Below are positions 29,466 to 54,356 of a DNA stretch of 64,000 bases, piece by piece; position 1 is the first letter of the stretch, and each line of letters opens with the position of its first letter. The notes below the pieces were generated by a model. The model did not search any database. It saw nothing but the letters and a program-made list of their open reading frames with translations, and was not told where the DNA came from. Source of the DNA: a phage; NCBI GenBank assembly GCA_026683435.1, contig GCA_026683435.1_4866.1. One strand, written 5' to 3'. A program made the translations under genes and the position numbers.

Positions 29466-30377
29466 TTAGGCATTAAAGTGCAGGTACATGATACCCTGGA
29501 AGTTGGTGCACAGAGTGTCATCCAGCTGCAGCAGCAGAACCTGGTTGTAAGCAGTGTTTGCACCTTCAACCGGTTTCTTAGGTTCGTCGCCTGAAGCAGT
29601 GCCATCGTCAGTAGTAGAACCAACGTACAACACGTTAGCGCCTTTCAGGTTATAATCCGCAGGCTTATCAGATGCAACCCACAGTTCCGGCACAACTTTA
29701 TTCAGCTCAACCGGGAATGCAGAGTCGCCAGCGATAACACCTTTCGCCTGTACTTTCAGGAATGCTGCGATTGCTGTGCAGTCTACACCGTAAGAGTAGA
29801 TGTAACCCTGACCCTTCGCAGCGCTTGGACCATCTGGGTAAACCAGGCCGTCGAGCTTGGTTTGTGTTACCACCAGACTCAGACGTTCACCAACCTGAGG
29901 CTTAGCACCGATTTTAACCGGGATGCTGCCCAGATAAGCGTAGCAGTCTTCTTTGAAAGTAATGACGTGGTCAACCGGTGCTGGGTCCGGATCGTTCGGG
30001 TTAGTCAGCGGCGGGTTGGTATTTTCCGGAATAGCCGCCGGAACGATATCGTCTTCGGTCAGCTTCAATCCGTATTGGGTGTTCAGGGTCGTCAGCAGGT
30101 CGGTGGTGGTTTTCGGCAGTTTAACGTCGAGGTATGCGGTTACATTACGGAACAGCGCACTGCCTTCCAGGCGATTATAAGTCACGTCCTGAGTACCGAT
30201 GTACCCGGAGTTCTTTTTCGCAGTCAGGGTCATGCTGGTATTGCGATCGGCACCTTCATCGCTAATAGGGGTCGGTGTGCCGAGCGTTATTTTAGAAAGT
30301 TCCAGTTCTGCGTCTGGGTTTTTCTCATTAATAAAATCCAGAACCAGCTTATCGGACGTTTTGTTTAAAGGTTTCAT
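29466..30377 (-). CDS. paralogue-family protein (303 aa)
   Basis: N-module 'DVTYNRLEGSALF'; C-terminal 'MYLHFNA'. Confidence 0.75.
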   Translation of the reverse strand: MKPLNKTSDKLVLDFINEKNPDAELELSKITLGTPTPISDEGADRNTSMTLTAKKNSGYIGTQDVTYNRLEGSALFRNVTAYLDVKLPKTTTDLLTTLNTQYGLKLTEDDIVPAAIPENTNPPLTNPNDPDPAPVDHVITFKEDCYAYLGSIPVKIGAKPQVGERLSLVVTQTKLDGLVYPDGPSAAKGQGYIYSYGVDCTAIAAFLKVQAKGVIAGDSAFPVELNKVVPELWVASDKPADYNLKGANVLYVGSTTDDGTASGDEPKKPVEGANTAYNQVLLLQLDDTLCTNFQGIMYLHFNA

Positions 30378-30398
30378 TCTTACTTCCTTTACTCAGGA

Positions 30399-31244
30399 TT
30401 AATCAGGGTCGTTGTAATGCAAATACAAACGCCCGCCAAAATTCAGACAGTACAACGACAGCTCCACAATCAGCACGTTGTCGACTGCTGGGTTGGTTGG
30501 TAATTCCGCTTTGTTACGCCCGTTATAGACGACGACGGCTTCACGAAGGTTAAAGTCGATAGGGTTGCGGTACGTTGTCCAGTTATCACCGGTGACCGTT
30601 TTGAGAATCTGTGCCAGACGTTCTGTGGTTATCGCAGCACCTAGTCGTTGAAATTCCTCCGCGAAATTATCAAAGCGCCAGGGATACGAATAAACTGCAC
30701 CTTGACCGACCTTGATGTTAAAATACGGATACTCGTAAGGCATCACTGTTAACGGTTCGAAGTTTGCAGGAAGCAACGCATCGCCTGGTAACAGCTGTAC
30801 CTGTTGTTGCCCTATCCAACCTAAAGAAGTGGGCGTGGCAATCAGATCCACACGCCATGTCTTCCTGTCGATTTCGGTATTCACCACATCTGCAGGTTTA
30901 AGGCTGAGACCGTAATACTGGTTAATTAACCCGACCACGTCATGCATCTGGTAAACAGCATCGAGACGTGCAGGAACACGTAGAGGTTGAATCCCGTCCG
31001 GATCGGTAAACATGTCTGCGAAGTCAACACGATCGTAGTACACGGTAGTGGCACCGATAGCATTAGCCGTGGCCAATGCCTGAATGCGCACCATCGCGTT
31101 GTGACCGTTAGCTTTTGCCAGGTCTTCGTCAGACGTCGGAATCGCAGGGACACCAAAAACAACATCTTCGACTTTTAAATCGAGATTGTTTTCGACGTTA
31201 ACTTCCGCGATAATAATCTTTTCAGCTGTGGCTAAAAGTGGCAT
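30399..31244 (-). CDS. paralogue-family protein (281 aa)
   Basis: N-module 'TTVYYDRVDFADMF'; C-terminal 'LYLHYNDPD'. Confidence 0.75.
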   Translation of the reverse strand: MPLLATAEKIIIAEVNVENNLDLKVEDVVFGVPAIPTSDEDLAKANGHNAMVRIQALATANAIGATTVYYDRVDFADMFTDPDGIQPLRVPARLDAVYQMHDVVGLINQYYGLSLKPADVVNTEIDRKTWRVDLIATPTSLGWIGQQQVQLLPGDALLPANFEPLTVMPYEYPYFNIKVGQGAVYSYPWRFDNFAEEFQRLGAAITTERLAQILKTVTGDNWTTYRNPIDFNLREAVVVYNGRNKAELPTNPAVDNVLIVELSLYCLNFGGRLYLHYNDPD

Positions 31245-31254
31245 GTCAAAATCC

Positions 31255-32097
31255 TTATATCGGGAGATAATGAAGGATGAGATTACCGGCGTAGTTGCTG
31301 TCCGCAGCTAGCTTGATAATCGCCACACGCTGATAATCGGGGTTGTAACTATCGTTCGGTGTGACTGAAGTTATCCCCATAAATCGTGCACCTTGGAGTG
31401 CAATTTGTTCAGGTTGCGCATTCGCCCCCGTCACATATGCAAACTTTAATGGCACCACTTCATTCAACAACTCAACATCCGCTGCAGTGATTGCACGGTT
31501 GTAAACCCAATCGGTGGTGAACTGTTTTTGCAGTTCAGTCCAATCGTAACCATACGCCACATACTCAGCCTGCGGTTTACTAGCAACCACGAACGGCGCG
31601 ATAATTGCGCTGAGGTCAACATCCGTCACCACATCCGCCAAGTTCGGGAAGAACTTCGCAAAGCGTAAACGGAAACCACCTTGCCAGGCCAAGCAACCGG
31701 GCTTAATAGTCACATCGATTAACCAGCTTTCTCCCAAATCTTTTACTGACTGGTCAACGATATCGTCGGCAACTAAAGACAAGCCGTATTTCGCATTCAG
31801 AAACGGCAACAACTCAGAGAGTTTATTTACCGGGTCGGCAACGACTACCGGTATTACGTTCCTGAACAGAATTTCCATTTCGATACGGTCGTATTCGAGC
31901 GTAACGTTGCCTTTGTAGCCCTTGCCGTTCAACCCGTATAAGAGCACACGCGTATTCCGGTCAGCGCCAGGCGTTTGGACAGACTCAGGGAAGCCAGTTG
32001 CAACCTGCTCCCATGTGAGTGGATTGGCCGTTAATCCGTTCTGTCGGTTAATAGCATCTAACAACATCTCTTTCGAGGGCTTATCGTAAATAGACAC
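31255..32097 (-). CDS. paralogue-family protein (280 aa)
   Basis: N-module 'VTLEYDRIEMEILF'; C-terminal 'LILHYLPI'. Confidence 0.75.
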   Translation of the reverse strand: MSIYDKPSKEMLLDAINRQNGLTANPLTWEQVATGFPESVQTPGADRNTRVLLYGLNGKGYKGNVTLEYDRIEMEILFRNVIPVVVADPVNKLSELLPFLNAKYGLSLVADDIVDQSVKDLGESWLIDVTIKPGCLAWQGGFRLRFAKFFPNLADVVTDVDLSAIIAPFVVASKPQAEYVAYGYDWTELQKQFTTDWVYNRAITAADVELLNEVVPLKFAYVTGANAQPEQIALQGARFMGITSVTPNDSYNPDYQRVAIIKLAADSNYAGNLILHYLPI

Positions 32098-32107
32098 CTA
32101 TACCCTC

Positions 32108-32905
32108 CTAGTTGTTAAAGTGTAGGTTGAGGCTGCCCTGGAAGTTCGTACATTTATCGGTCAGTTGCACTGACACGACTTTCGCGAACGCCGTATTTGC
32201 TCCCGGCAAGTCTGCAGGTACGCCGTCGAATACGACAGTGGCACCACGCAGGTTATACGGGGATGGGGTATCTTCAGCTACCCAAATCTCAGGAACACAT
32301 TTGTTGAGTTCGATTGCCAACGCCGTGTCATCTACCTCGATACCGACCGCTAAGAGGCTCAGGAAACGAGAGATGTGGCTACAATCGATGTCACGCGAAT
32401 AGATATACGCCTGACCCAACTGGATGTCCTGGTGATCCGGGTACAGAAGACCGCTCAACTCTGTATTGGTTACTACTTCTGCCAGAGGTGTAGCAGGTTT
32501 CAGCTCGATGACCGCTTGACTTCGCCACTCGTGGGAAGTTTCAACAGCAACGACTGTGTGCGTCTGTCCATCAATGGGGTTATCTTCGATATCCTCAGGT
32601 AAGATAGACAGATTAAAACGCTCGTTAATCGCCGCGAGTAAGTCGTGCGTGGTTTGCACGTCCTCGTCTCCAAAGGCAACATCGCCTGTAAGGTAGTCCT
32701 CTAATGGGCGACGATGGTAGTCCACAATCACTTGCGTACCTTCATCACCGCGCATCTTCGAGGTAAGGACTACCTCCGAATCACGACCGTCTACTGACAC
32801 AACCTCCGGCAGTCCGATATCAACATCGTCAAAGGTAAGCGGTGGGCTTATCTTATTCTCTTCGTTGATGAGTTTTAGCAGATTCTGTTTTGAAGTAAAA
32901 GACAT
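32108..32905 (-). CDS. paralogue-family protein (265 aa), first gene of the array
   Basis: N-module 'VIVDYHRRPLEDYL'; C-terminal 'LNLHFNN'. Confidence 0.75.
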   Translation of the reverse strand: MSFTSKQNLLKLINEENKISPPLTFDDVDIGLPEVVSVDGRDSEVVLTSKMRGDEGTQVIVDYHRRPLEDYLTGDVAFGDEDVQTTHDLLAAINERFNLSILPEDIEDNPIDGQTHTVVAVETSHEWRSQAVIELKPATPLAEVVTNTELSGLLYPDHQDIQLGQAYIYSRDIDCSHISRFLSLLAVGIEVDDTALAIELNKCVPEIWVAEDTPSPYNLRGATVVFDGVPADLPGANTAFAKVVSVQLTDKCTNFQGSLNLHFNN

Positions 32906-33052: not shown

Positions 33053-33083
33053 TTTTCTTCACGACTATATCCTCAATCGTCGA

Positions 33084-33363: not shown

Positions 33364-33810
33364 TTAGTGTACTTCTTTTTCTAAACGCAGGCGATGCGTC
33401 GCTAAGGCAACCGCGCGGTTTTCGAATTCAAGACTGAATGGACTGATTTGTGCCATGTATTTCTTTACAACATCGTCAGAGACAACTTGACGACGATAAT
33501 CACGAATCATTTCAGCGAAGCTGCTAGTAGGAAGTTCGTCGTATTCGATTTCCATACCACGTCTATTGATGTAATACGAAGCAACCATGTCGTTAAACAT
33601 TACGTCACCGGCTTCACCTAAAGGGAACTCGTCACGTGTGGGTTCCGTAGTCTGGAACGTGGCTTCTTTGGCGTTGGCGATAATCTCTTCGAAGTCCTCA
33701 GTAGTGAATTCGCTAGGGTCTTGTTTGTTGGCCGCCATCACGATTAGGAAAGAAATCATAATCGGGTTTTTGCTAGCGTACTTAGTAAGTTCGTTATTCA
33801 GAATGTACAT
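33364..33810 (-). CDS. hypothetical protein (148 aa)
   Basis: AAGGAG RBS, preceded by the conserved upstream motif. Confidence 0.65.
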   Translation of the reverse strand: MYILNNELTKYASKNPIMISFLIVMAANKQDPSEFTTEDFEEIIANAKEATFQTTEPTRDEFPLGEAGDVMFNDMVASYYINRRGMEIEYDELPTSSFAEMIRDYRRQVVSDDVVKKYMAQISPFSLEFENRAVALATHRLRLEKEVH

Positions 33811-33856
33811 GTTAAAACTCCTTAAGATAATGGTCGATTAGATAAGAGTTAATGGT

Positions 33857-33887
33857 TAACTCTCACCTAAGTAATATATATCTGAAA
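33857..33887 (-). promoter_or_regulatory. conserved upstream motif, copy 1 (putative phage promoter or operator)
   Basis: TAACTCTCACCTAAGTAATATATATCTGAAA on the plus strand, identical to 52611-52641, about 45-75 nt upstream of the ATG. Confidence 0.5.
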
Positions 33888-33904
33888 ATAATTGTAATCG
33901 GACT

Positions 33905-33945
33905 AGACAAAAAAAGAAGAAACCCTACTCCCGAAGGAGTAGGGT
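33905..33945 (-). terminator. intrinsic terminator
   Basis: Stem CCCTACTCC/GGAGTAGGG with UUCG loop on the transcript, then T-run. Confidence 0.55.
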
Positions 33946-33981
33946 ACTGCTTTATTCGCTACCCTTGGGATAAGCGTCATC

Positions 33982-34410
33982 CTAGTTGATGTGGAGTAGA
34001 GTGTCCTTCAACGCCTTCTGCTTTTCGTACGACTGACGACACAAGGAAGTCAGCGTCGAATACGCCGTGCCGGTACGCACCGGTAATTCGCCACCCGCTT
34101 CGGTGGGTTCTGTACGAACAAAAGACCCTTCTTCAAACGGCGGCGCTGCGTGTGGGAAGTTCTTTTTCATGTATCGCTTATACCAGCCGGCTACAACACG
34201 GATAACTTTTGGCATCTGAGATCGTCGGTCACGTACTTTCTTCCCGTGCATCTGATTCATCTCGGAAGACATGCATAGCGAGGTGTACTGACTGAATCCG
34301 TCACTGACCCACTTACCGTCCTGGACCAGTAATTTCTTACCAACTGCTACAGCGATTCTCGGAGAGAAAATGACCGCACCATCTTTACGTTTCTTAGGCT
34401 TAAGCATCAT
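33982..34410 (-). CDS. hypothetical basic protein (142 aa)
   Basis: N-terminus MMLKPKKRKDG resembles the N-terminus of the next gene. Confidence 0.6.
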   Translation of the reverse strand: MMLKPKKRKDGAVIFSPRIAVAVGKKLLVQDGKWVSDGFSQYTSLCMSSEMNQMHGKKVRDRRSQMPKVIRVVAGWYKRYMKKNFPHAAPPFEEGSFVRTEPTEAGGELPVRTGTAYSTLTSLCRQSYEKQKALKDTLLHIN

Positions 34411-35203
34411 TATCGTCCTTGTATAGGGAGTCGTAAGGGCTGTTAGTGTTCATGTTAAATTCTTGTTCTACTTCAGGATGTTGTGAAAGGGAATCCAGAA
34501 AGATCGGTTGATATCCACCCTCTGTACGTTTCTTTATCATTTCAAGGAACGACTTTCCATCAGGAACATCAGGTGTTGATACTAACACCGTGTCAGAGAC
34601 TGTCGGTAAACGCGTGCAGCCTTCAGTGTTCAGCTGTAGTACCGCGTCTGGTGCGATGTGTCTGATGTTAGGAAACTTCAACGCGATCTCTTCCATCTTC
34701 GCTTTCAATGCATCACCGTTTAGCAGCGGTACAGTCGGCGTCATATAAGCGAACTCAACATCTCGATCGGCCACATAATCGCGTAAGTGTTTTCGGGCTG
34801 CTACTGTAGCAGAAACTTGCTCTTTATTAGCGTTTATGCCGATGTCATTAAAGCGTTTTAGTTTGTCTAAGAAAACGCTAATGTTTTCCTTCGGCATAGG
34901 GCGTGGGAACTTACGCAGAAAATAAAGTTGTTCGCGGCCAGGCACCCAGCTGAGTACCCAGCACGCTTTTAGTGTACGGAAGATATCACGATAGGGTTTC
35001 TTCTCTTGAAAGAAATCCCCTTTTAACTGGCAACGGTCTTCAACCATTGCCTGGAGTTGGGTGGCTACGTTGGCCATTGCCGACCAGGTGATAAGACGAC
35101 TACGGTGTTTACCCACGTAGAGACGTCCACCTGTAACACGACGGGACTGTGGATGTACTATTTTGACAAACTGTAATCTTTTCTGTTTGCGTGGTTTTAA
35201 CAT
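34400..35203 (-). CDS. hypothetical protein (about 267 aa)
   Basis: AAGGAG lies 8 nt upstream of the internal ATG (MLKPRKQKRLQF...). Confidence 0.6.
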   Translation of the reverse strand: MLKPRKQKRLQFVKIVHPQSRRVTGGRLYVGKHRSRLITWSAMANVATQLQAMVEDRCQLKGDFFQEKKPYRDIFRTLKACWVLSWVPGREQLYFLRKFPRPMPKENISVFLDKLKRFNDIGINANKEQVSATVAARKHLRDYVADRDVEFAYMTPTVPLLNGDALKAKMEEIALKFPNIRHIAPDAVLQLNTEGCTRLPTVSDTVLVSTPDVPDGKSFLEMIKKRTEGGYQPIFLDSLSQHPEVEQEFNMNTNSPYDSLYKDDNDA

Positions 35204-35280
35204 TTTAATACTCCTTATGGTCGTAACTAATTTGAAACTGTTGCTTTTAAGGATTAACGAACAGCCTGCCAACCTCTAAT

Positions 35281-35747: not shown

Positions 35748-36068
35748 TTAAAATCCATTGCGACCTCCATGTGCGATGTATAACGCACATTTCGCATTGA
35801 GTGCTTCGATATTAGCGATAAGTATCATCACCCCGCCGAGTGTTCGTGGTACGCGAACTGCTTCGTACTCGCGACTTTGTGTACGGACACAATATTCATC
35901 GCCCAGGAACGCGATTTCGTAATACTCAGCACGTAACGGTACAAATGACTGTAGCAACATATCTGCGGTTTGATAGTCGTCAGTCAGTTTCCCGCCCTCG
36001 AGTAAATATTTCTGAATCTCGTGAATAGTCAGTCCCCGTAATGAAATAGACACCGGCTTCTCCTTCAT
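35748..36068 (-). CDS. hypothetical protein (106 aa)
   Basis: ORF in the co-directional block; overlaps the upstream ORF in another frame. Confidence 0.45.
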   Translation of the reverse strand: MKEKPVSISLRGLTIHEIQKYLLEGGKLTDDYQTADMLLQSFVPLRAEYYEIAFLGDEYCVRTQSREYEAVRVPRTLGGVMILIANIEALNAKCALYIAHGGRNGF

Positions 36069-36411
36069 GGTCGATTAATAACAGTTCAGGTGGTACGTCG
36101 TAGTCGATGGGTGCGGACTCCTCCATCACGCTATACAATCGCTGATAGAACTCTCTGGAGGTTTCCAGGTGCCCTCTTGACACGTGTCTGACATGCGGTG
36201 TATTAGGATGATAAAACTCGCCGTAGGTTATCGCTAACTCGACAAACCATAGACATAGTTCTCTTGGCCCGTATCGGTTATAAAACTTTATCACCCCAAC
36301 ATCAAACATCTTGTTGTAATGCGGTAAATCACGATAACGAAGTTTTAGTGTACCTACACCGATGCGTTGAAGCTCGATAGAGATAGCTACGTCTATGGTT
36401 AACATTATCAA
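35980..36411 (-). CDS. hypothetical protein (143 aa)
   Basis: ORF in the co-directional block. Confidence 0.5.
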   Translation of the reverse strand: MIMLTIDVAISIELQRIGVGTLKLRYRDLPHYNKMFDVGVIKFYNRYGPRELCLWFVELAITYGEFYHPNTPHVRHVSRGHLETSREFYQRLYSVMEESAPIDYDVPPELLLIDHEGEAGVYFITGTDYSRDSEIFTRGRETD

Positions 36412-38349: not shown

Positions 38350-38411
38350 TTTAAGTGCTCCTTAATACATGACATAAGCTCTGATTGAAACGTAAATTTC
38401 AGAGGTTCACT

Positions 38412-38431
38412 GAGATAATATCTATCTGAAA
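38412..38431 (-). promoter_or_regulatory. conserved upstream motif, copy 2
   Basis: GAGATAATATCTATCTGAAA on the plus strand, directly downstream of the terminator hairpin of the preceding gene. Confidence 0.45.
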
Positions 38432-38471
38432 TAAAATAAAGGTTAGGTGGTACCTCGTAGAGGTACCACCT
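38430..38471 (-). terminator. intrinsic terminator
   Basis: Stem AGGTGGTACCTC/GAGGTACCACCT, then T-rich run on the minus transcript. Confidence 0.55.
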
Positions 38472-45985: not shown

Positions 45986-46036
45986 TCTCGATACTCCTTA
46001 TAGATTAAAATGTGAGGGAGAAAACAATCTTCTCCC

Positions 46037-46057
46037 CTAGATAACATCTATCTGAAA
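46037..46057 (-). promoter_or_regulatory. conserved upstream motif, copy 3
   Basis: CTAGATAACATCTATCTGAAA on the plus strand; contains inverted repeat AGATA-N5-TATCT. Confidence 0.45.
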
Positions 46058-46066
46058 AGTAATGCG

Positions 46067-52200: not shown

Positions 52201-52566
52201 CTACATTACTGCAGAAGGTTTACGTGCCATGACTTTGAGTCCTGTTTCTCGTACCCGGATAGGACAGTTATTCATGTAGTCGGTGCAGGATTCAATTTTG
52301 AAGCTATGGCGGCATTTGCCGTTGATGGAACGGTAAACGATTTCGTAATTCAGGCGCAGTGTATCGGCAACACGCATCAGAGTTTCGATAGTCACGGCTT
52401 TCTCGCGTTCATTTTTAATCGCAGAGATTTGTGACGGTGAGCAGCCTACCAACAATGCAATGTCTTTCTGCGTAACATCCTTCGCAGTGACACGAGTAAT
52501 AATGTAAGAGAGACGAACCAGAAATGCTTTCTTTGCCAACACAACGGTTTGATGTTTAAAACGCAT
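52201..52566 (-). CDS. helix-turn-helix DNA-binding protein (121 aa)
   Basis: 'QKDIALLVGCSPSQISAIKN' HTH-like segment. AAAGGAG RBS, conserved motif upstream. Confidence 0.55.
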   Translation of the reverse strand: MRFKHQTVVLAKKAFLVRLSYIITRVTAKDVTQKDIALLVGCSPSQISAIKNEREKAVTIETLMRVADTLRLNYEIVYRSINGKCRHSFKIESCTDYMNNCPIRVRETGLKVMARKPSAVM

Positions 52567-52610
52567 TAGAATACTCCTTTAGATTAATAGTCGATTAGAG
52601 AGTTTAGTAG

Positions 52611-52641
52611 TAACTCTCACCTAAGTAATATATATCTGAAA
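52611..52641 (-). promoter_or_regulatory. conserved upstream motif, copy 4
   Basis: Identical 31-mer to copy 1, within an approximately 80-bp region highly similar to 33811-33890. Confidence 0.5.
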
Positions 52642-52683
52642 TTTAGTGGAGTGGAAGCAAAAAGCATAAGACTGTTCTGATCT

Positions 52684-52723
52684 GTAAAAAAAGACAATAC
52701 CCTCTTACCCGAAGGTAAGAGGG
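52684..52723 (-). terminator. intrinsic terminator
   Basis: Stem CCCTCTTACC/GGTAAGAGGG with UUCG loop, then T-run. Confidence 0.55.
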
Positions 52724-54221: not shown

Positions 54222-54320
54222 TTTGTTTACTCGCTTTTAAGTTTAAGTTGGTGAGTTTTAACCGACTCACAACGGCTTCTAGCATATGCTAAGGATGAAA
54301 CGTAATTTTTGCACGTCTCC

Positions 54321-54342
54321 CTAAGATAACATCTATCCAAAA
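54321..54342 (-). promoter_or_regulatory. conserved upstream motif, copy 5 (variant)
   Basis: CTAAGATAACATCTATCCAAAA on the plus strand, next to a terminator hairpin. Confidence 0.4.
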
Positions 54343-54356
54343 AAGAATAGAGTCGA

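What the first reader, a model, noticed from the sequence alone, without database searches (positions are those of the whole stretch)
33811..33890. An approximately 80-bp 5' regulatory region duplicated upstream of two unrelated genes
Seen: the region from the motif to the ATG of gene 33364-33810 is near-identical to the region upstream of the HTH gene at 52567-52650, including the spacer and the RBS context (..AACTCT.TCTAATCGAC.ATTA.TCT.AAGGAGT..). Inference: recent duplication or gene conversion of a whole promoter and 5'UTR, implying co-regulation of these two genes.
Basis: seen in the sequence. Interest (0 to 1): 0.45.

Follow-up and report, generated by a model that had tools for sequence, protein, structure and literature searches.

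The report
Jumbo-phage early promoter and leader cassette
The two near-identical 80-bp stretches are copies of a regulatory cassette found throughout SPN3US-like giant phages (early promoter, start-of-message hairpin, conserved ribosome-binding leader), so they are a real but fairly ordinary feature and not a recent duplication.

Summary
The regions 33811-33890 and 52567-52650 (both on the minus strand) share a 31-nt exact block and are 80% identical overall. Other gene-upstream pairs in the window average 50 ± 4%.

The window is an SPN3US-like jumbo phage, 99% identical to Escherichia phage EC001. Each copy has four parts:
- **Promoter.** It matches the published phiKZ-type early (virion RNA polymerase) consensus TTTCAGATATATATTACYTAGGTG. 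There are 5 family members in the window and about 24 in the genome; 6 of those are this tight subclass.
- **Hairpin.** A 7-9 bp stem starts at the predicted transcription start. Its sequence covaries across 51 distinct relatives.
- **Leader box.** TAATCGACYATTA is orientation-specific and about 10-fold enriched 19-38 nt before start codons.
- **Ribosome-binding site.** A strong AAGGAG precedes the ATG.

The co-regulation inference holds only in the sense that both genes are predicted early genes, along with about 20 other transcription units. The inference of recent duplication or gene conversion is not supported. Orthologues of the HTH gene in other genera carry the same cassette with compensatory stem changes. 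Orthologous cassettes are at least as similar as the two paralogous copies within a genome.

The function of the leader box is unresolved.

The parts
33909..33945 (-). Intrinsic terminator (stem ACCCTACTCC-TTCG-GGAGTAGGGT plus T-tract) that closes the upstream unit, about 25 nt before promoter copy A
   Evidence: Terminator scan. Coordinates.
33864..33895 (-). Copy A early-type (virion RNAP) promoter: T/A-rich upstream part plus TTTCAGATATATATTACTTAGGTG. TATATTAC lies at 33871-33878. The predicted TSS is near G 33864 (inferred).
   Evidence: PWM score 41.1. Exact repeat. Match to published phiKZ, 201phi2-1, OBP and N1M2 early promoter consensus (PMC7058600 Table 2). TSS position by analogy.
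33844..33864 (-). Copy A 5'-terminal hairpin, GAGAGTTAA-cca-TTAACTCTT (9 bp, first pair G-U)
   Evidence: Fold, (the centroid is the hairpin only). Anchored-stem statistics. Covariation.
33828..33840 (-). Copy A leader box TAATCGACCATTA
33818..33823 (-). Copy A Shine-Dalgarno AAGGAG. The ATG is at 33808-33810.
   Evidence: Sequence.
33364..33810 (-). Gene A: 148-aa protein of unknown function (EC001 MGA_138, SPN3US gp131, phrog_8484)
52686..52723 (-). Intrinsic terminator (CCCTCTTACC-TTCG-GGTAAGAGGG plus T-tract) after the thymidylate kinase gene, about 60 nt before promoter copy B
   Evidence: Terminator scan. Coordinates.
52618..52649 (-). Copy B early-type promoter with the same 24-nt core. 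TATATTAC lies at 52625-52632. The predicted TSS is near G 52618 (inferred).
   Evidence: PWM score 41.8..
52598..52618 (-). Copy B 5'-terminal hairpin, GAGAGTT-actacta-AACTCTC (7 bp)
   Evidence: The orthologous hairpins carry compensatory changes.
52585..52597 (-). Copy B leader box TAATCGACTATTA
   Evidence: The 28-nt leader is identical in Erwinia phage Asesino.
52574..52579 (-). Copy B Shine-Dalgarno AAGGAG. The ATG is at 52564-52566.
   Evidence: Sequence.
52201..52566 (-). Gene B: 121-aa XRE-family HTH protein (EC001 MGA_104)
   Evidence: Pfam HTH_3, E = 2e-7. phrog_7126. Annotation.
54315..54350 (-). Third member of the promoter family (GGATAGATGTTATCTTAGGGAG variant)
   Evidence: PWM score 33.1.
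46030..46065 (-). Fourth member of the promoter family, also followed by a hairpin at the predicted start (GGGAGAA...TTCTCCC)
   Evidence: PWM score 35.4. Sequence.
38404..38439 (-). Fifth member of the promoter family
   Evidence: PWM score 38.7.
36067..36073 (-). CGACCAT box core without a nearby promoter, 20 nt before the GTG start at 36053
35217..35223 (-). CGACCAT box core without a nearby promoter, 20 nt before the ATG at 35203

Best explanation
Each 80-bp stretch is one copy of a composite early-gene expression cassette of an SPN3US-like (phiKZ-related, nucleus-forming) jumbo phage. It has three working parts.

1. **Promoter.** About 32 bp form a promoter for the phage's own multisubunit virion RNA polymerase, which is injected with the DNA. 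Transcription probably starts at or next to the G that ends TAGGTG.
2. **Hairpin.** The first 21 nt of the mRNA fold into a 7-9 bp stem-loop with no, or almost no, unpaired 5' tail. Its most likely role is to protect the message from 5'-end-dependent decay.
3. **Leader.** An unstructured leader follows. It carries the box TAATCGACYATTA at a fixed distance upstream of a strong Shine-Dalgarno sequence and the ATG.

The two copies look alike because both are close to the consensus of multi-copy functional modules under purifying selection. They are not alike because one was recently copied from the other.

**Shown:** repeat and identity; membership in a genome-wide motif family that matches published early-promoter consensus; hairpin covariation and strand asymmetry; enrichment, orientation and spacing of the box; conservation at orthologous loci.

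**Inferred:** which polymerase acts and when; the exact TSS; the stabilising role of the hairpin; what the box does.
For: **Identity of the phage.**
- 99% identical to vB_EcoM_EC001 (Seoulvirus SPN3US), whose annotation includes several RNAP beta-type subunits.
- SPN3US packages a virion RNAP that makes early transcripts (PMC5694885).

**Promoter.**
- The core TTTCAGATATATATTACYTAGGTG matches 201phi2-1 (TTTRARR_BTATATTACDWHDGTG), phiKZ (TATATTAC) and OBP/N1M2 (TTTCARRYAKATATTATYWAAGTG) (PMC7058600).
- Those motifs are experimentally tied to early TSSs about 10 nt downstream.
- About 24 copies occur in EC001, all upstream of genes and in gene orientation, including upstream of RNAP subunit genes. 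Five occur in the window.
- No sigma-70-like promoter lies on the gene strand at either copy.

**Hairpin.**
- 29 of 43 distinct cassettes have a stem of at least 5 bp anchored exactly at the G after TAGGT, against 11.5% of shuffles. Eight different arm sequences are represented.
- In the covariance-model alignment of 51 distinct sequences, 92% of cells are paired (shuffles 72%). Seven of 8 pairs have double-sided changes. The covariation score is 0.404 against 0.140 (0 of 500 shuffles reach it), and slid controls give at most 0.086.
- There are 34 G-U pairs among 210. The sense RNA is more stable than the antisense in 23 cases against 5.

**Leader box.**
- 14 of 69 CGACYAT occurrences lie 19-38 nt before an SD plus start codon, against 1.4 of 61 for permuted controls.
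- None of 69 do so in the reverse orientation. AATCGACYAT occurs 13 times on the + strand of EC001 and 0 times on the - strand.
- The leader is predicted to be unstructured.

**Age.**
- HTH orthologues in three genera keep the cassette.
- Orthologous identity is at least as high as paralogous identity.
Against: - No transcript 5' ends or timing data exist for SPN3US-like phages in the papers I could search. Polymerase assignment and TSS rest on analogy with phiKZ and 201phi2-1.
- The hairpin is not universal. About a third of the tight-subclass cassettes, and many of the broader family with short leaders, lack it.
- The covariance-model alignment is fitted to the structure it tests, which inflates pair counts.
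- The stabilising role of the hairpin is textbook inference from my own knowledge (E. coli ompA-type 5' stem-loops and 5'-end-dependent RNase E/RppH decay). It was not tested here.
- The function of the box is open. It sometimes follows directly after a terminator, which would also fit a second promoter.
Confidence: 0.8

Rival explanations
1. Recent duplication or gene conversion copied one promoter and 5'UTR onto the other gene.
For: - These two are the most similar upstream pair in the window.
- They share the same stem arms, GAGAGTT/AACTCT.
Against: - The same cassette sits upstream of HTH orthologues in Seoulvirus, Erskinevirus and Machinavirus phages.
- Paralogous identity (0.78) is not above orthologous identity (0.84, 0.79).
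- The loops differ completely, and similarity stops at the promoter's upstream edge and at the ATG.
- GAGAGTTAA/TTAACTCT is the commonest stem across many phages and loci, so it is family consensus.
- All SPN3US-like genomes have the same six copies.
Confidence: 0.07
2. [quoted passage not shown] On this view it is not a feature of the mRNA.
For: - The hairpin abuts the conserved promoter core.
- Its position relative to the core is fixed.
Against: - G-U (G-T) pairs are frequent, and the sense strand folds better than the antisense in 23 cases against 5.
- Loops range from 3 to 13 nt, whereas N4 hairpins have 3-nt loops and lie upstream of the start (my own knowledge; PMC4496689 was listed but I did not read it).
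- Many family promoters have no hairpin at all.
- The jumbo-phage enzyme is a multisubunit polymerase unrelated to the N4 virion RNAP.
Confidence: 0.1
3. The leader box CGACYAT is a second promoter, for example for the non-virion RNA polymerase in the middle phase. The genes would then have tandem early and middle starts, as reported for phiKZ gene 054.
For: - There is a precedent for tandem early plus middle promoters (PMC8244752).
- The box occurs without the early promoter and sometimes immediately after a terminator T-tract.
- It is strictly orientation-specific.
- It contains a YAT core reminiscent of the phiKZ late TATG.
Against: - Its distance to the start codon, and in Erwinia phages its direct abutment on the SD, would leave a very short leader.
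- Structural (late) genes lack it and show a different AGTATGA-like motif.
- The spacer and SD are conserved together with it over 28 nt. This fits a translation-initiation-region element better.
Confidence: 0.25
4. The box is the DNA operator of the XRE-family HTH protein encoded by gene B. The protein would autoregulate and would shut off a set of about 13 early genes.
For: - The HTH gene's own leader carries the best-conserved copy: 28/28 nt identical to Asesino at 59% protein identity.
- TAATCG-A-CYATTA is a 5-of-6 imperfect palindrome (by inspection of the list).
Against: - All copies have one orientation relative to the gene.
- The apparent symmetry centre differs between the Seoulvirus and Erwinia-phage versions.
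- Huxley keeps the HTH gene and the promoter but not the box in that leader.
- There are no binding data.
Confidence: 0.1
5. The cassettes are PeSL-like mobile regulatory cassettes. On this view their main evolutionary role is to provide homology for recombination that shuffles the small genes between them.
For: - Both copies pair a terminator with a strong early promoter.
- The region next to copy A differs by gene-sized indels among phages that are 96-99% identical, with breakpoints at 33946-33974, just upstream of the terminator.
- The same cassette type precedes unrelated genes in different phages.
Against: - The breakpoints lie beside the cassette, not within it.
- Only 4 of 24 promoters have a strict terminator within 120 nt.
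- No recombinant junctions or mini-circles were shown.
- This reading is compatible with the main explanation and does not replace it.
Confidence: 0.2

Closest known systems
Early (virion RNA polymerase) promoters of phiKZ-like jumbo phages (phiKZ, 201phi2-1, OBP, N1M2)
   Same: - Same core sequence (TATATTAC / KATATTAY ... GTG) with a T-rich upstream part.
- Tens of copies per genome at the heads of early operons.
- The phage encodes a packaged multisubunit RNAP.
   Different: - I found no description for SPN3US-like phages in the searchable papers.
- Here a tight six-copy subclass is coupled to a covarying hairpin at the start site and to a conserved leader box. Neither feature is mentioned in the phiKZ dRNA-seq paper or the 201phi2-1 paper I read.
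5'-terminal stabilising stem-loops of bacterial mRNAs (E. coli ompA type)
   Same: - A short stem-loop placed at the very 5' end of the message, followed by an unstructured leader and the ribosome-binding site.
- The structure is conserved, not the sequence.
   Different: - Function is not tested here and the 5' end is only inferred.
- The comparison rests on my own knowledge of 5'-end-dependent RNase E/RppH decay.
PeSLs (promoter-early stem-loops) of T4-type phages
   Same: - Small repeated cassettes that combine a strong early promoter with a stem-loop.
- They lie among small non-essential genes in regions that differ by indels between close relatives (PMC2839356).
   Different: - PeSL promoters are sigma-70-like and the stem-loop is the terminator.
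- Here the promoter is phage-polymerase-specific and no sigma-70 match was found.
- The conserved hairpin is downstream of the promoter and has no T-tract. The terminator is a separate element further upstream.
5'UTR premature-termination units and short RNAs of phiKZ
   Same: Two sister copies outside the window (EC001 164260 and 166080) have promoter, hairpin, intrinsic terminator, box and gene in that order. This resembles the phiKZ 5'UTR terminators that yield abundant short RNAs (PMC10914365).
   Different: The two window copies have no terminator between the promoter and the gene.

Membership tests
phiKZ-like early (vRNAP) promoter | AT-rich core TATATTAC / KATATTAY with a T-rich upstream element and GTG near the start | tested here: met
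   TTTCAGATATATATTACTTAGGTG at both copies against the published consensus strings (PMC7058600 Table 2).
phiKZ-like early (vRNAP) promoter | Many copies per genome, in gene orientation, at the heads of non-structural (early) operons | tested here: met
   About 24 sites in EC001, all upstream of genes on the same strand. Five in the window. Absent from the structural-gene upstream regions examined, except that of MGA_261.
phiKZ-like early (vRNAP) promoter | The phage encodes a virion-packaged multisubunit RNA polymerase | tested here: met
   RNAP beta-type subunit genes are annotated in EC001. The SPN3US vRNAP is documented (PMC5694885).
phiKZ-like early (vRNAP) promoter | Primary transcript 5' end about 10 nt downstream of the AT-rich core, appearing early and independent of host RNAP | not testable with these tools
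   No transcript data for this phage group in the searchable literature.
5'-terminal stabilising stem-loop | Base-paired structure maintained by compensatory changes | tested here: met
5'-terminal stabilising stem-loop | The stem starts within a few nt of the mRNA 5' end | tested here: inconclusive
   The stem is anchored at the G after TAGGT, which is the TSS expected by analogy. The TSS has not been measured.
5'-terminal stabilising stem-loop | Lengthens mRNA half-life | not testable with these tools
   Needs decay measurements on stem mutants.
PeSL (T4-type mobile regulatory cassette) | Sigma-70-like early promoter | tested here: not met
   No sigma-70-type site on the gene strand at either copy.
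PeSL (T4-type mobile regulatory cassette) | The stem-loop of the cassette is a transcription terminator | tested here: not met
   The conserved hairpin lacks a T-tract and lies downstream of the promoter. Separate terminators lie 25-60 nt upstream.
PeSL (T4-type mobile regulatory cassette) | Indel and replacement junctions between close relatives fall at cassette copies | tested here: inconclusive
   The breakpoints at 33946-33974 are next to the copy A terminator. Only one locus was examined.
N4-type DNA hairpin promoter | Short DNA hairpin with a 3-nt loop upstream of the start, recognised by a single-subunit vRNAP | tested here: not met
   Loops of 3-13 nt, the hairpin at or after the start, and G-U asymmetry that favours the sense RNA. 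The polymerase is multisubunit.
Recent segmental duplication / gene conversion | Paralogous copies more alike than orthologous copies; one copy absent in relatives | tested here: not met
   Identity matrix. Orthologous cassettes in three genera. Six places in nearly all SPN3US-like genomes.
rRNA-complementary translational enhancer (T7 gene 10 epsilon type) | Leader element complementary to 16S rRNA beyond chance | tested here: not met
   The longest complement of the box to E. coli 16S is 7 nt. Shuffled controls average 6.8 nt.
Rfam RNA families | Match at the gathering threshold | tested here: not met
   No matches in the whole window.

The most novel reading that the evidence does not exclude
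The leader box TAATCGACYATTA would define a small regulon of about 13 early genes per genome, read by a dedicated phage factor. The box is orientation-fixed, about 10-fold enriched before start codons, and part of a 28-nt leader identical across genera that share only 59% protein identity. It could act in one of two ways: as a factor-dependent second (middle-phase) promoter for the non-virion polymerase, or as an mRNA operator for a translational regulator. The XRE-type HTH protein, whose own leader carries the best-conserved copy, is a candidate factor. Together with the covarying start-site hairpin, this would be a post-initiation control layer not yet described for nucleus-forming jumbo phages.
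Probability: 0.3. Interest if true: 0.55.

Novelty: new member of a known kind. Interest (0 to 1): 0.33.

Why it matters
**Annotation.** The result gives SPN3US-like phages (Salmonella, E. coli and Erwinia jumbo phages used as genetic and therapy models) a concrete map of predicted early promoters and start sites. Five lie in this window and about 24 in the genome.

**New detail.** It also shows that a subset of early messages shares a structured 5' end and a conserved leader box. Promoters of this kind are already known from phiKZ, so the promoter itself is not surprising. The hairpin and the box are cheap to test. They could explain how some early messages are stabilised, or handed from early to middle expression.

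**For the scan.** The lesson is that an 80-bp match between unrelated genes here reflects shared regulatory modules, not a recent rearrangement.

Tried and rejected
- **Rfam scan of the whole window:** nothing.
- **Sigma-70 promoter reading:** no site on the gene strand at either copy.
- **Hairpin as a general feature of the whole promoter family:** rejected. Mean MFE and z-scores over 23 promoters are no better than random genomic 36-mers. The hairpin is a feature of the tight subclass and of some other members.
- **MAFFT alignment of hairpins:** out of register because loop lengths differ. I replaced it with a covariance model built from nine gap-free seeds.
- **Box as a 16S rRNA-complementary enhancer:** rejected.
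- **Box as the late promoter:** rejected. Late and structural genes lack it and show AGTATGA-like motifs instead.
- **Box upstream of the phage tRNA gene** (which would have argued for a promoter): absent, so uninformative.
- **nut/rrn-type antitermination site (hairpin plus linear box):** considered and set aside. The box keeps a fixed distance to start codons and also occurs at internal genes without a hairpin. No boxA-like sequence is seen.
- **RNase III site:** stems of 6-9 bp are too short (my own knowledge).
- **Single-protein locus searches in IMG/VR:** returned only SPN3US itself. I used tblastn against the phage collection instead.
- **Supplementary TSS tables of the phiKZ and 201phi2-1 papers:** not held. 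The Ceyssens 2014 paper is not held either.
- **Search for SPN3US expression-timing data:** nothing usable.

Full report
**1. The observation.**

Both stretches lie on the minus strand, directly upstream of the start codons of ORF 33364-33810 and ORF 52201-52566.
- A 29-nt probe from one copy matches the other exactly (33858-33886 and 52612-52640). It matches nowhere else in the window with up to three mismatches, and none of 100 shuffles gave a match.
- From the T-rich edge of the motif to the ATG the two are 66/82 = 80% identical.
- Among 561 pairs of 80-nt gene-upstream regions in the window this is the top pair (0.80 against 0.496 ± 0.040). Other pairs within the same promoter family reach only 0.59-0.66.
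- The downstream proteins are unrelated. One is an XRE/HTH_3 protein (E = 2e-7) and the other has no Pfam family.

**2. Where the window comes from.**

The window is 97-99% identical to Escherichia phage vB_EcoM_EC001 and 96% identical to Salmonella phage SPN3US (Seoulvirus), which are 240-kb jumbo phages. These phages are phiKZ relatives. They package a multisubunit virion RNA polymerase (vRNAP) that makes the early transcripts, and they encode a second, non-virion enzyme (PMC5694885; PMC7598289). I loaded the whole EC001 genome to see the element in its genomic context.

**3. The first 32 bp are a promoter of a known kind.**
- A position-weight scan finds about 24 sites in EC001 with the consensus AAAWWTTTCAGATAGATATTATCTNAGTGAG. 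All lie upstream of genes and in gene orientation, including in front of RNAP subunit genes.
- Five sites lie in the window, all on the minus strand, ending at 54350, 52649, 46065, 38439 and 33895.
- Six EC001 sites form a tight subclass, AGATATATATTACYTAGGTGA. The two copies in the finding belong to it. BLAST shows the same six places in nearly every SPN3US-like genome.
- The motif matches published early-promoter consensus strings: 201phi2-1 TTTRARR_BTATATTACDWHDGTG, phiKZ TATATTAC, and OBP/N1M2 TTTCARRYAKATATTATYWAAGTG (PMC7058600 Table 2).
- In phiKZ and 201phi2-1 this motif sits about 10 nt upstream of mapped early transcription starts (PMC7598289; PMC11512511; PMC8244752).
- By that spacing the start here falls at or next to the G that ends TAGGTG (33864 and 52618). 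This is inference; no transcript data exist for this phage group in the papers I could search.
- No sigma-70-type promoter is present on the gene strand at either copy.

**4. The next 21 nt form a hairpin whose structure is what is conserved.**

In the six EC001 copies the sequence straight after TAGGT forms stems with different sequences: GAGATTGC/GTAATCTT, GATAGA/TCTATC, GAGAGTT/AACTCTC, GAGAGTTAA/TTAACTCTT and GAGCGTTA/TAACGCTT. A pattern scan of IMG/VR gave 46 further copies from SPN3US-like and Erwinia jumbo phages.
- Of 43 distinct cassettes, 29 have a contiguous stem of at least 5 bp anchored exactly at that G, against 11.5% of shuffles (maximum 26%). Anchors further downstream give almost none.
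- I built a covariance model from nine gap-free seeds and used it to align 61 hits, 51 of them distinct.
- On that alignment 92% of cells pair (shuffles 72.3 ± 1.5, 0 of 500 reach it) and 7 of 8 pairs have changes on both sides (1 of 500).
- The covariation score is 0.404 against 0.140 (0 of 500), and slid controls give at most 0.086.
- The alignment is fitted to the structure, which favours it. The anchored-stem count does not depend on that alignment.
- G-U pairs are common (34 of 210), and the sense RNA is more stable than its complement in 23 cases against 5. This points to an RNA structure, not a DNA cruciform.
- Folding the predicted 5'UTRs gives the hairpin as the only centroid structure. 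The box and the SD are left single-stranded.
- The hairpin is not a property of every family promoter, because those with very short leaders lack it.
- My reading is a 5'-terminal protective stem-loop. This is inferred from the established behaviour of such structures in E. coli (my own knowledge).

**5. The rest is a conserved leader.**

After the hairpin comes TAATCGACYATTA, a short spacer, AAGGAG and the ATG.
- In EC001 the core CGACYAT precedes an SD plus start codon by 19-38 nt in 14 of 69 occurrences. Composition-matched permuted motifs do so in 1.4 of 61 on average, with a maximum of 8.
- The reverse-complement orientation never does so (0 of 69). The 10-mer AATCGACYAT occurs 13 times on the + strand and never on the - strand.
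- The box also occurs without the early promoter, at internal genes and sometimes directly after a terminator. In the window there are two such cores, at 36067-36073 and 35217-35223.
- It is not complementary to 16S rRNA beyond chance.
- It is absent from structural-gene upstream regions, which show AGTATGA-like motifs instead.
- In Erwinia phages the equivalent is GACYATC abutting the SD.

What the box does is open. I rank the readings in this order: an mRNA-level element of the translation initiation region, then a second promoter, then an operator for the HTH protein.

**6. Not a recent duplication.**

tblastn finds HTH orthologues in many jumbo phages. Their upstream regions compare as follows:

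| Phage | Protein identity to the window HTH | Upstream region |
|---|---|---|
| pEa_SNUABM_29 | 70% | Promoter, compensatory hairpin (AGCATTT/AAATGCT) and box |
| Asesino | 59% | Promoter, same stem with a different loop, and a 28-nt leader (TAATCGACTATTAATCTAAAGGAGTATT) identical to the window's |
| Huxley | 35% | Promoter and another compensatory hairpin (GACATTGA/TCAATGTC), but no box |

- A distant homologue of gene A in pEa_SNUABM_29 (29% aa identity) carries a cassette 84-90% identical to copy A.
- Similar cassettes precede unrelated genes in Asesino and SPAsTU.
- In the identity matrix, orthologous cassettes (0.84, 0.79, 0.72) are as similar as or more similar than the two paralogues within a genome (0.78, 0.68, 0.70).

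The resemblance between the two window copies is therefore old and held in place by function.

**7. Surroundings.**
- Each copy is preceded by an intrinsic terminator with a UUCG loop, at 33922-33945 and 52700-52723. This terminator-then-promoter arrangement recalls the PeSL cassettes of T4-type phages (PMC2839356).
- The neighbourhood of copy A differs by gene-sized indels among phages that are 96-99% identical, with breakpoints just upstream of that terminator.
- PeSL promoters are sigma-70-like and their stem-loop is the terminator, so this is an analogy and not membership.
- Genome-wide, only 4 of 24 promoters have a strict terminator within 120 nt, against 3.9% of random positions.

**8. 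Verdict.**

The finding is real.
- It is a promoter and a 5'UTR, and the two genes are predicted to share early timing. That timing is shared with about 20 other units.
- The claim of recent duplication or gene conversion is not supported.
- The promoter is a new member of a known kind.
- The covarying start-site hairpin and the orientation-fixed leader box are modest additions that I did not find described in the papers I read. Both are easy to test.

Noticed in passing
L006:14256-14350 (EC001 164256-164350) and L006:16080-16177; outside the window: Two sister cassettes have the order promoter, 5' hairpin, intrinsic terminator (for example GGCTACCCtcgGGTAGCC followed by TATTCTTTTTT), box, gene. 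They could give a short RNA of about 55 nt, or act as an attenuator, like the 5'UTR premature-termination units reported for phiKZ.
   Followed up: partly
window 33946-34763, 33058-33066 and 35220-35280: Gene-sized indels and replacements relative to SPN3US and JN03, although the flanks are 93-98% identical. About 790 bp (33974-34763) are absent from SPN3US, and JN03 has different sequence there. This is a hyperplastic patch of small ORFs beside cassette copy A.
   Followed up: partly
window, somewhere between 35300 and 51800: The coordinate offset between the window and EC001 differs by 1034 bp at the two loci (150549 against 149515). There is therefore about 1 kb of net indel between them, which I did not locate.
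   Followed up: no
EC001 divergent late-gene intergenic regions (for example L007 28730-28788, L006 7485-7553): Structural-gene upstream regions repeatedly contain AGTATGA/TCATACT-like words, often in both orientations in very short divergent spacers. This resembles the phiKZ late promoter TATG that overlaps the start site. It may be the late promoter of this phage group.
   Followed up: no
window 46030-46065 and 38404-38439 (minus strand): Two of the three other family promoters in the window are also followed by hairpins at the predicted start (GGGAGAA...TTCTCCC and CTCTGA...TCAGAG). Start-site hairpins therefore extend beyond the tight subclass.
   Followed up: partly
window 29466-32905 (minus strand): Four tandem ORFs of 265-303 aa. 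Two neighbours that I compared are distant paralogues (26% identity, E = 1e-9). The region is annotated as virion structural proteins in SPN3US.
   Followed up: partly
window 33811-33820 (copy A leader, GAGTTTTAAC): A 10-nt perfect complement to E. coli 16S rRNA positions 903-912 lies between the SD and the ATG of gene A. It is probably chance: shuffled 19-mers reach 10 nt in about 2% of trials and this leader is longer. It is absent from copy B.
   Followed up: no
window 33909-33945 and 52686-52723 (minus strand): The two terminators upstream of the cassettes resemble each other (CCCT..., a TTCG loop, ...AGGG, then a T-tract). This suggests a conserved terminator family, as described for phiKZ.
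   Followed up: no
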